A stretch of 64,000 bases of DNA, taken from positions 77,252,001-77,316,000 of the forward strand of contig NC_043006.1 in NCBI RefSeq assembly GCF_006345805.1. The letters run 5' to 3'. The DNA is from Octopus sinensis (lineage: Eukaryota). Both the position numbers and the translations under genes were made by a program. Each line of letters starts with the position of its first letter. Position 1 is the stretch's first letter. This document shows positions 6,095 to 6,604 of this stretch, one piece after another. The notes below the pieces were generated by a model. The model had not been told where the DNA came from, made no database searches, and saw only the letters and a program-made list of their open reading frames with translations.

Positions 6095-6604
6095 CACCAA
6101 ATTAATATTAGAAATATTGAATTTCTAAATGTCTCAAAGAGACATGAGTCTTCGCAAATATATCTATTTACAGTGAAATCTATGGGCTATATAGCTGTGG
6201 TGTAATTCCCTCTACGGGACTGTCACGTTATGTTGACATTATACAACCACTCTATCGCTCATATCTCTTTGAGACATTTACAAAATCAATATTTCTAATT
6301 ACGGTTACCAGTGAATAGATTTCACTGTAAATAGATATATTTGCGAAGGCTTGGCAAGTATCACCGCTAGCGGGGACTCGCTATCCTGGACTGATGACGG
6401 GCAAGACCCAGAAGCATGTATGTCTTCAGGTTGCTAGTCCTAGCTGGTTGGGGTGCTTGCGTCCCCTTTGCAAATATAAGGACATAGTAAATGTGTCAAA
6501 GCCCACAGGAAGCGTCGATGCTTCCTAGGGCTATATAGCGGTGGTGTAATTCCTTCTACGGGACTGTCACGTTATGTTGAATTTATACAACCACCAAATT
6601 AATA
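6095..6604 (+). mobile_element. Short hammerhead-containing Penelope-type/retrozyme-like insertion with a 13-bp TSD
   Basis: TSD CACCAAATTAATA at 6095-6107 and 6592-6604. A ~67-bp direct repeat at 6184-6250 and 6528-6594 (period 344). Inverted copies: 6107-6148 vs 6258-6299 and 6147-6183 vs 6315-6351. Hammerhead motif at 6385-6430. Confidence 0.8.
6385..6430 (+). ncRNA. Type I hammerhead ribozyme motif (variant, probably impaired)
   Basis: CCTGGA-CTGATGA-C-GGG-CAAGA-CCC-A-GAA-G-CAT-GT-ATG-TC-TTCAGG. Stem I is CCTGGA/TTCAGG, the CUGAUGA core is intact, stem II is GGG/CCC, stem III is CAT/ATG and the site is GUC. A15.1 is G and the stem II closing pair is C-A. Confidence 0.7.

What the first reader, a model, noticed from the sequence alone, without database searches (positions are those of the whole stretch)
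6095..6604. Complete 344-nt-unit hammerhead element with TSD, terminal redundancy and two inverted 5' fragments
Seen: a 13-bp TSD (CACCAAATTAATA), about 1.2 copies of a 344-bp unit (67-bp direct repeat), and two inverted internal pieces stitched onto the 5' side. The hammerhead stem I extends further (GGACT/AGTCC), there is an extra hairpin AGGAAGCGTCGATGCTTCCT at 6507-6526, and there is no ORF. Inference: a greater-than-unit-length insert is what reverse transcription around a ~344-nt circular RNA or a tandem transcript would give, with template jumps at the end of synthesis.
Basis: partly seen in the sequence, partly recalled or inferred. Interest (0 to 1): 0.75.

Follow-up and report, generated by a model that had tools for sequence, protein, structure and literature searches.

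The report
Two-armed Penelope-style hammerhead retrozyme copy
This is one damaged copy of a scattered, protein-free 355-base repeat that carries a predicted self-cutting RNA motif; its sister copies end at two fixed sites, one on each of two back-to-back arms, which likely records a Penelope-type retrotransposon enzyme priming both strands of one DNA break on the same, possibly circular, RNA.

Summary
In detail: a 13-bp target duplication, 1.2 head-to-tail units, two inverted pieces, a type I hammerhead fold and no ORF. The copy is not complete. The family unit is 355 nt; this copy lacks 11 nt and has A15.1 changed to G (1 of 155 hammerheads). The family is dispersed, with hundreds to about a thousand copies. 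Ends are not permuted: 80 of 87 and 70 of 74 arms end at unit ~72 or ~127, and 64 of 89 two-armed loci use one site on each arm. That is the known Penelope-like (PLE) pattern of tail plus inverted pLTR. The inverted pieces are therefore the second arm, not late template jumps. Laps within an arm share rare variants (0.37% against 0.07% across loci), which fits a circular template but does not prove one. No arm reaches two units. Intact PLE ORFs exist in the genome; the partner was not found. No RNA evidence was obtained. The kind is known (non-LTR retrozyme, PLE-derived). This scan found the same pattern before on other DNA of this genome.

The parts
6095..6107 (+). Left target-site duplication (13 bp, AT-rich)
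   Evidence: family TSDs of 8 bp or more in 54 of 213 loci against 2 of 213 in a shifted control, mode 12-13 bp
6107..6148 (-). Inverted arm, outer piece: family positions 127 to 86; its outer end is the long fixed end
   Evidence: identical to the family majority
6147..6183 (-). Inverted arm, inner piece: family positions 179 to 143; joined to the outer piece over a 2-nt overlap (jump or later deletion)
6184..6527 (+). Main arm, first lap: one family unit (355 nt in the family, 344 here; 11-nt loss near 6255-6260 between short direct repeats)
6336..6478 (+). Long predicted rod hairpin with the hammerhead at its tip (extended stem I)
   Evidence: (sister copy, z -9.9)
6364..6385 (+). Landing site of Tx1-like LINEs in sister copies (family 192-213); empty in this copy
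6385..6430 (+). Type I hammerhead motif: stem I 6385-6390 with 6425-6430; core 6391-6397; 3-bp stem II above a C-A mismatch (family trait); G instead of A15.1 at 6414 (this copy only); predicted cut after 6424
6481..6526 (+).
   Evidence: relatives
6528..6594 (+). Main arm, second lap: family 1 to 67, ending at the short fixed end
6592..6604 (+). Right target-site duplication

Best explanation
The locus is a TSD-flanked, ORF-less insertion of a dispersed 355-nt hammerhead repeat, built of two head-to-head arms that end at two different fixed sites, and it was likely made by a Penelope-like RT/GIY-YIG enzyme acting in trans on an RNA that was possibly circular. Inferred steps: the enzyme cuts both strands of an AT-rich target about 12-13 nt apart. 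One DNA end primes inside the RNA at unit ~67-77; here it ran about 420 family bases, 1.2 laps, through the hammerhead cut site. The other end primes at ~127; here it copied 42 nt and, after a jump or later deletion, 37 more. The two cDNAs were joined at their 5' ends. Arms longer than one unit need an RNA in which the lap junction is seamless. A ligated 355-nt circle released from the few loci with two hammerheads is the simplest source (about even odds against uncut read-through RNA). This copy has one hammerhead with a core change and is predicted to be a dead end.
For: Shown: dispersed family (2142 first-look candidates, 40 scored; exact 26-, 22- and 30-mers 58, 123 and 253 times with 0 control hits). 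Fixed 3' ends in 80 of 87 and 70 of 74 arms against about 9 and 7 expected if uniform (six loci occur in both samples). Two-armed loci: 64 of 89 long+short, 9 more long plus a shorter end, 4 short+short, 1 long+long, 11 other. TSDs in 54 of 213 loci against 2 of 213 (two of the 54 are TAA-like). Stems keep pairing across 13 aligned copies and relatives: 83% of cells paired, 11 of 21 pairs with two-sided changes, 0 of 500 shuffles as high. 132 of 155 family hammerheads have an intact core. Laps within an arm agree at polymorphic sites in 176 of 202 cases against 1624 of 2908 across loci, and share rare variants at 13 of 3540 sites against 36 of 54909. Intact RT+GIY-YIG ORFs of 775-883 aa lie in the genome. 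Established: an inverted pLTR, a tail on one end and an 8-10 bp TSD are PLE traits (PMC3846280, PMC8557442; passages). The tail equals the gap between two internal RT start sites, with both strands cut and extended in vitro (PMC11167929, main text).
Against: No PLE with a matching terminal repeat was found in 80 stretches around PLE-type proteins. The gap between the two ends is about 55 nt, longer than the 30-40 nt tail in the papers read. No arm reaches two units (maximum 636 nt), although an RT on a circle could run several laps. Only 4 of 213 loci hold two hammerheads in one arm (L013, L018, L022, L159). This copy's own laps share no rare variant and differ at 1 of 5 polymorphic sites. Lap sharing is also expected from a young homogeneous tandem source. 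Stem II starts with a C-A mismatch in 133 of 155 copies, so cleavage may be slow. The covariation alignment is small, its sequences are related, and one row is misaligned.
Confidence: 0.8

Rival explanations
1. Same PLE-type enzyme, but the template is only linear: uncut read-through RNA from loci longer than one unit. The ribozyme cuts some of the RNAs but no circle is copied.
For: Arms never reach two units. Most arms cross the predicted cut site (69 of 87; 44 of 50 at risk). 5' ends are commoner just after the cut site than just before it (24 of 137 in 253-268 against 3 of 113 in 237-252, p 1e-4, bins chosen after looking, six loci counted twice). In L056 both arms end at the cut site. PAc uses unprocessed RNA in vitro (PMC11167929).
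Against: 5'-truncating copies of linear RNA would shorten the family each generation unless something restores more than one unit. Lap junctions are seamless at a 355 period. Rare-variant sharing between laps (0.37%) is close to that between arms (0.46%). The 5' ends show no sharp peak at 253 (1 arm) and are as dense in 269-308, so RT stalling in the rod explains them as well.
Confidence: 0.4
2. The unit is the solo pseudo-LTR of an autonomous PLE that I did not sample, so copies are simply short 5'-truncated PLE insertions.
For: The insertion anatomy is that of PLEs; pLTRs carry type I hammerheads (PMC4209133, passages); the PLE survey was partial (150 scored of 5029 GIY-YIG candidates).
Against: Upstream of a unit lies another lap of the same unit, an inverted arm, flank or a Tx1-like LINE tail. 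The one shared upstream sequence, followed up in 14 extended stretches, gave no tblastn hit to PLE proteins.
Confidence: 0.1
3. A SINE-like element moved by an ordinary LINE, with the inversion made by L1-type twin priming.
For: TSDs of 12-13 bp and 5' truncation also fit LINE TPRT (recalled); Tx1-like LINEs are physically linked to this family.
Against: There is no poly(A) or shared LINE tail at the 3' ends. Either arm can carry either end. The inverted arm starts at a fixed site and often overlaps the main arm by 100-280 nt, unlike twin priming at variable internal sites (recalled).
Confidence: 0.05

Closest known systems
Metazoan non-LTR retrozymes (coral, mussel, axolotl; PMC7229834, results and discussion read; bioRxiv 10.64898/2026.07.22.740005, abstract to discussion read)
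   Same: ORF-less unit of 150-450 nt (mussel 350-390), type I hammerhead, TSD longer than 4 bp, co-occurrence with PLEs; PLE-driven copying of a circle was proposed there.
   Different: No multimeric arrays here (at most 1.8 units). The fixed double 3' end and the two-arm rule are not described in the parts read. Stem II has a C-A closing mismatch. Circular RNA is not shown here.
EN+ Penelope-like elements (Penelope/Poseidon, Neptune, Naiad; PMC11167929 main text, PMC3846280 and PMC8557442 passages)
   Same: Partial tandem plus inverted 5' copy, tail on one end, AT-rich or microsatellite targets, TSD, hammerhead in the repeat, two internal RT start sites.
   Different: No ORF, the whole element is the repeat, the tail is about 55 nt rather than 30-40, and no matching autonomous pLTR was found.
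Plant LTR retrozymes (described in the two retrozyme papers above)
   Same: Hammerhead-bearing non-autonomous retroelement with a proposed circular intermediate.
   Different: Those have type III hammerheads in LTRs, a PBS and PPT, 4-bp TSDs and a Gypsy partner; this element has a type I motif and a 13-bp TSD.

Membership tests
Non-LTR retrozyme | Type I hammerhead in the unit | tested here: met
   Core, three stems and covariation; C-A mismatch at 10.1-11.1; this copy has G at 15.1; no Rfam hit
Non-LTR retrozyme | Unit of 150-450 nt with no ORF | tested here: met
   355-nt unit; longest stop-free frame 65 codons
Non-LTR retrozyme | TSD longer than 4 bp | tested here: met
   13 bp here; mode 12-13 in 54 of 213 loci
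Non-LTR retrozyme | Tandem array with two or more full hammerhead units | tested here: not met
   This copy has one hammerhead; longest arm 1.8 units; two hammerheads in 4 of 213 loci. Li et al. also count solo monomers.
Non-LTR retrozyme | Self-cleavage and circular RNA in vivo | not testable with these tools
   Needs an in vitro assay and raw RNA reads; only assembled contigs were offered
EN+ Penelope-like element (autonomous) | Single ORF with RT and GIY-YIG | tested here: not met
   No ORF in the insert; no PLE protein hit in the window
EN+ Penelope-like element (insertion signature) | Partial tandem plus inverted copy with a tail at one end | tested here: met
   64 of 89 two-armed loci pair a long with a short end
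EN+ Penelope-like element (non-autonomous derivative) | Sequence shared with the pLTR of an autonomous PLE | tested here: inconclusive
   No match in 80 PLE-flanking stretches, a small part of the PLE content

The most novel reading that the evidence does not exclude
A retrozyme that lives without tandem arrays: a PLE dimer primes both strands of one break at two fixed sites of a single 355-nt RNA circle, so each insertion is two cDNA arms joined back to back. The family also hosts site-specific Tx1-like LINEs and ORF1-only derivatives that ride along in its PLE-type insertions. This would give direct genomic proof of how retrozymes spread and a minimal substrate for PLE biochemistry.
Probability: 0.35. 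Interest if true: 0.7.

Novelty: new variant of a known kind. Interest (0 to 1): 0.42.

Why it matters
Which enzyme spreads animal retrozymes was left open in PMC7229834 and is argued from co-occurrence and pLTR phylogeny in the 2026 preprint. Here the insertion footprints themselves are those of PLEs, and the counts sharpen 'tail at one end' into a rule of one start site per arm. That predicts a simple in vitro result with a 355-nt RNA. The locus itself is an ordinary, decayed copy with no sign of a host function.

Tried and rejected
Rfam: no hammerhead hit at gathering or E up to 10. Permuted ends and multimers: rejected. Partner PLE: not found among stretches around GIY-YIG hits and a second PLE-like clade; the unit-like hits there (L098/L115, L101, L118) lie outside the PLE ends or on the other strand and look like separate relatives. 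Empty site: none among the 15 of 19 joints shown; both junctions are present in runs X16 and X17 and the right junction in X15, labelled as three organisms. Expression: no RNA holder listed; contigs of four runs guessed to be RNA cover the family but cannot show ends, strand or circles. snRNA-type promoter (lead from e1-8807207): no significant local match between the unit and the 110 nt upstream of 12 U2 and 12 U6 genes (best p 0.095); a 4-nt CAGT lies at a similar distance if the start were near 193; inconclusive. Sharp 5' peak at the cut site: not seen. Papers on LINEs targeting hammerhead elements: none in one search listing. Papers stating the one-site-per-arm rule for retrozymes: none seen or the parts read. 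Supplements of the 2026 preprint and of the other papers were not read and may bear on novelty.

Full report
Observation. An exact 13-mer flanks the insert at 6095-6107 and 6592-6604 and occurs nowhere else in the window. A 67-bp repeat recurs at period 344, and two pieces at 6107-6148 and 6147-6183 are inverted copies of internal parts. The hammerhead core, the GUC at 6422-6424, a long rod extending stem I and the 6507-6526 hairpin are present. No frame exceeds 65 codons. Rfam gives no hammerhead hit.

Family. The window lies in a 2.7-Gb genome. Earlier scan notes call it cephalopod; no call of mine names the host. The unit has 2142 first-look candidates, of which 40 were scored. Exact probes hit 58, 123 and 253 times with no control hits; allowing for divergence, my rough estimate is a few hundred copies with the ribozyme and about a thousand with the 3' part. 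The majority unit of 30 aligned copies is 355 nt; this copy lacks 11 nt. Arms differ from the majority by a median 4.3% outside polymorphic sites (182 arms), this copy by 3.7%. Of 155 hammerheads, 132 have an intact core, 133 have a C-A mismatch at the base of stem II, and only this copy has G at 15.1. Changes at 15.1 lower activity at least tenfold (PMC3088659, passages). Stems covary across 13 copies and relatives, with the caveats of a small, related and partly misaligned set.

Ends. I mapped arms in 213 distinct loci (14 duplicate fetches dropped). In two probe-defined samples, 80 of 87 and 70 of 74 arms end at unit 60-78 or 120-135, against about 9 and 7 expected if uniform; six loci occur in both samples. 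Of 89 two-armed loci, 64 pair a long with a short end, 9 pair a long with a still shorter end, 4 are short+short, 1 is long+long and 11 are other. TSDs of 8 bp or more flank 54 of 213 loci against 2 of 213 in a shifted control, and 67 loci touch a microsatellite. This copy fits the rule: main arm ending at 67, inverted arm starting at 127. The inverted pieces are thus one second arm with an internal jump or deletion.

What this matches. A partial tandem, an inverted 5' copy, a tail on one end and an 8-10 bp TSD are described for Penelope-like elements (PMC3846280 and PMC8557442, passages). In vitro, a PLE protein cuts and extends both target strands and starts at two internal RNA sites that define the tail (PMC11167929, main text). 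This genome holds intact RT+GIY-YIG ORFs of 775-883 aa. None of 80 stretches around PLE-type proteins carried a matching terminal repeat, so the enzyme class is inferred from the footprint and the partner is unknown.

Circle or linear RNA. For a circle: lap junctions are seamless; laps agree at 176 of 202 polymorphic sites against 1624 of 2908 across loci and share rare variants at 13 of 3540 sites against 36 of 54909, close to the 36 of 7838 between inverted arms; four loci hold two hammerheads and could release a monomer. Against: no arm reaches two units (maximum 636 nt); this copy's laps share no rare variant; a young homogeneous tandem would give similar sharing. 5' ends are denser just after the predicted cut than just before it (24 of 137 against 3 of 113, bins chosen after looking, six loci counted twice), but they are spread over 253-308 with one arm exactly at 253, so cleavage and RT stalling in the rod cannot be told apart. 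I put the circle at about even odds.

A passenger. A second pile-up of 5' ends at unit 198-216 is largely a LINE landing site. A pattern flagged a LINE-type 3' tail there in 20 of 213 loci; one of these (L180) is doubtful and one more (L271) was missed by the pattern. L219 holds a complete 1.68-kb insert with a zinc-knuckle ORF1 between duplicated target bases, and L226 a LINE whose second ORF has an endonuclease/exonuclease/phosphatase domain. The Tx1-like label is recalled from this anatomy and from earlier scan notes, not from a tree. Composites carry the LINE part on both arms with one long and one short end (L190, L230, L048, L159), so they were re-copied as one RNA. The site is empty in this copy.

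Comparison and novelty. The kind is the metazoan non-LTR retrozyme (PMC7229834, results and discussion read), argued to derive from PLEs (bioRxiv 10.64898/2026.07.22.740005, abstract to discussion read). A circular template for more-than-unit PLE copies was already proposed (PMC4209133, passages). The tandem-array feature was tested and not met, so I file it as a variant that works like a retrozyme with a PLE footprint. PMC13282606 (passages) lists active PLEs in an octopus and does not mention ribozymes in its main text. My reading was noted before I opened the scan's notes; those notes report the same two-armed pattern on other DNA of this genome and gave the LINE and promoter leads. A look-up by this sequence found nothing.

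Verdict. A real, decayed copy of a dispersed hammerhead retroelement. PLE-type mobilisation is likely (0.8); the circular template is open; the class is known. Interest 0.42.

Noticed in passing
L219:7720-9398; L230:6929-8800; L226:5359-8605; L169, L190, L048, L156, L159: Tx1-like LINEs and ORF1-only derivatives insert at unit ~192-213, the 5' strand of the hammerhead's extended stem I; composites were re-mobilised with the two-arm footprint.
   Followed up: partly
L069:2519-3052 and L098:5178-5493: A chimera: this family's unit (145-354) runs directly into a second, different hammerhead family with similar downstream hairpins, which suggests a template switch between two retrozyme RNAs.
   Followed up: partly
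L056:2517-2638: Two inverted arms that both end at the predicted hammerhead cut site (unit 251-252), inside a larger palindrome.
   Followed up: no
L059:1850-2250, L101:5307-5742, L118:914-1367: Diverged relatives (about 60-67% identity for L101 and L059) with the same layout; L059 and L101 keep a similar AT-rich hairpin at the long end.
   Followed up: partly
L093-L097, L098, L116:6620-6675: Near-identical intact 781-aa and one 775-aa PLE ORFs; the L098/L116 family has a minimal hammerhead-like motif near its 3' end.
   Followed up: partly
3' ends of many copies, e.g. L017, L018, L038: The short end often runs into (TC)n then (TA)n, as if the element's last bases seed a microsatellite at insertion.
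   Followed up: no
window:51949-52005: A weak hammerhead-like motif with a 1-bp stem III, unrelated to this family; probably chance.
   Followed up: partly
G000:C1:141926002-141953129: A tandem array of about 20 U6 snRNA genes at 1.1-2.5 kb spacing.
   Followed up: no
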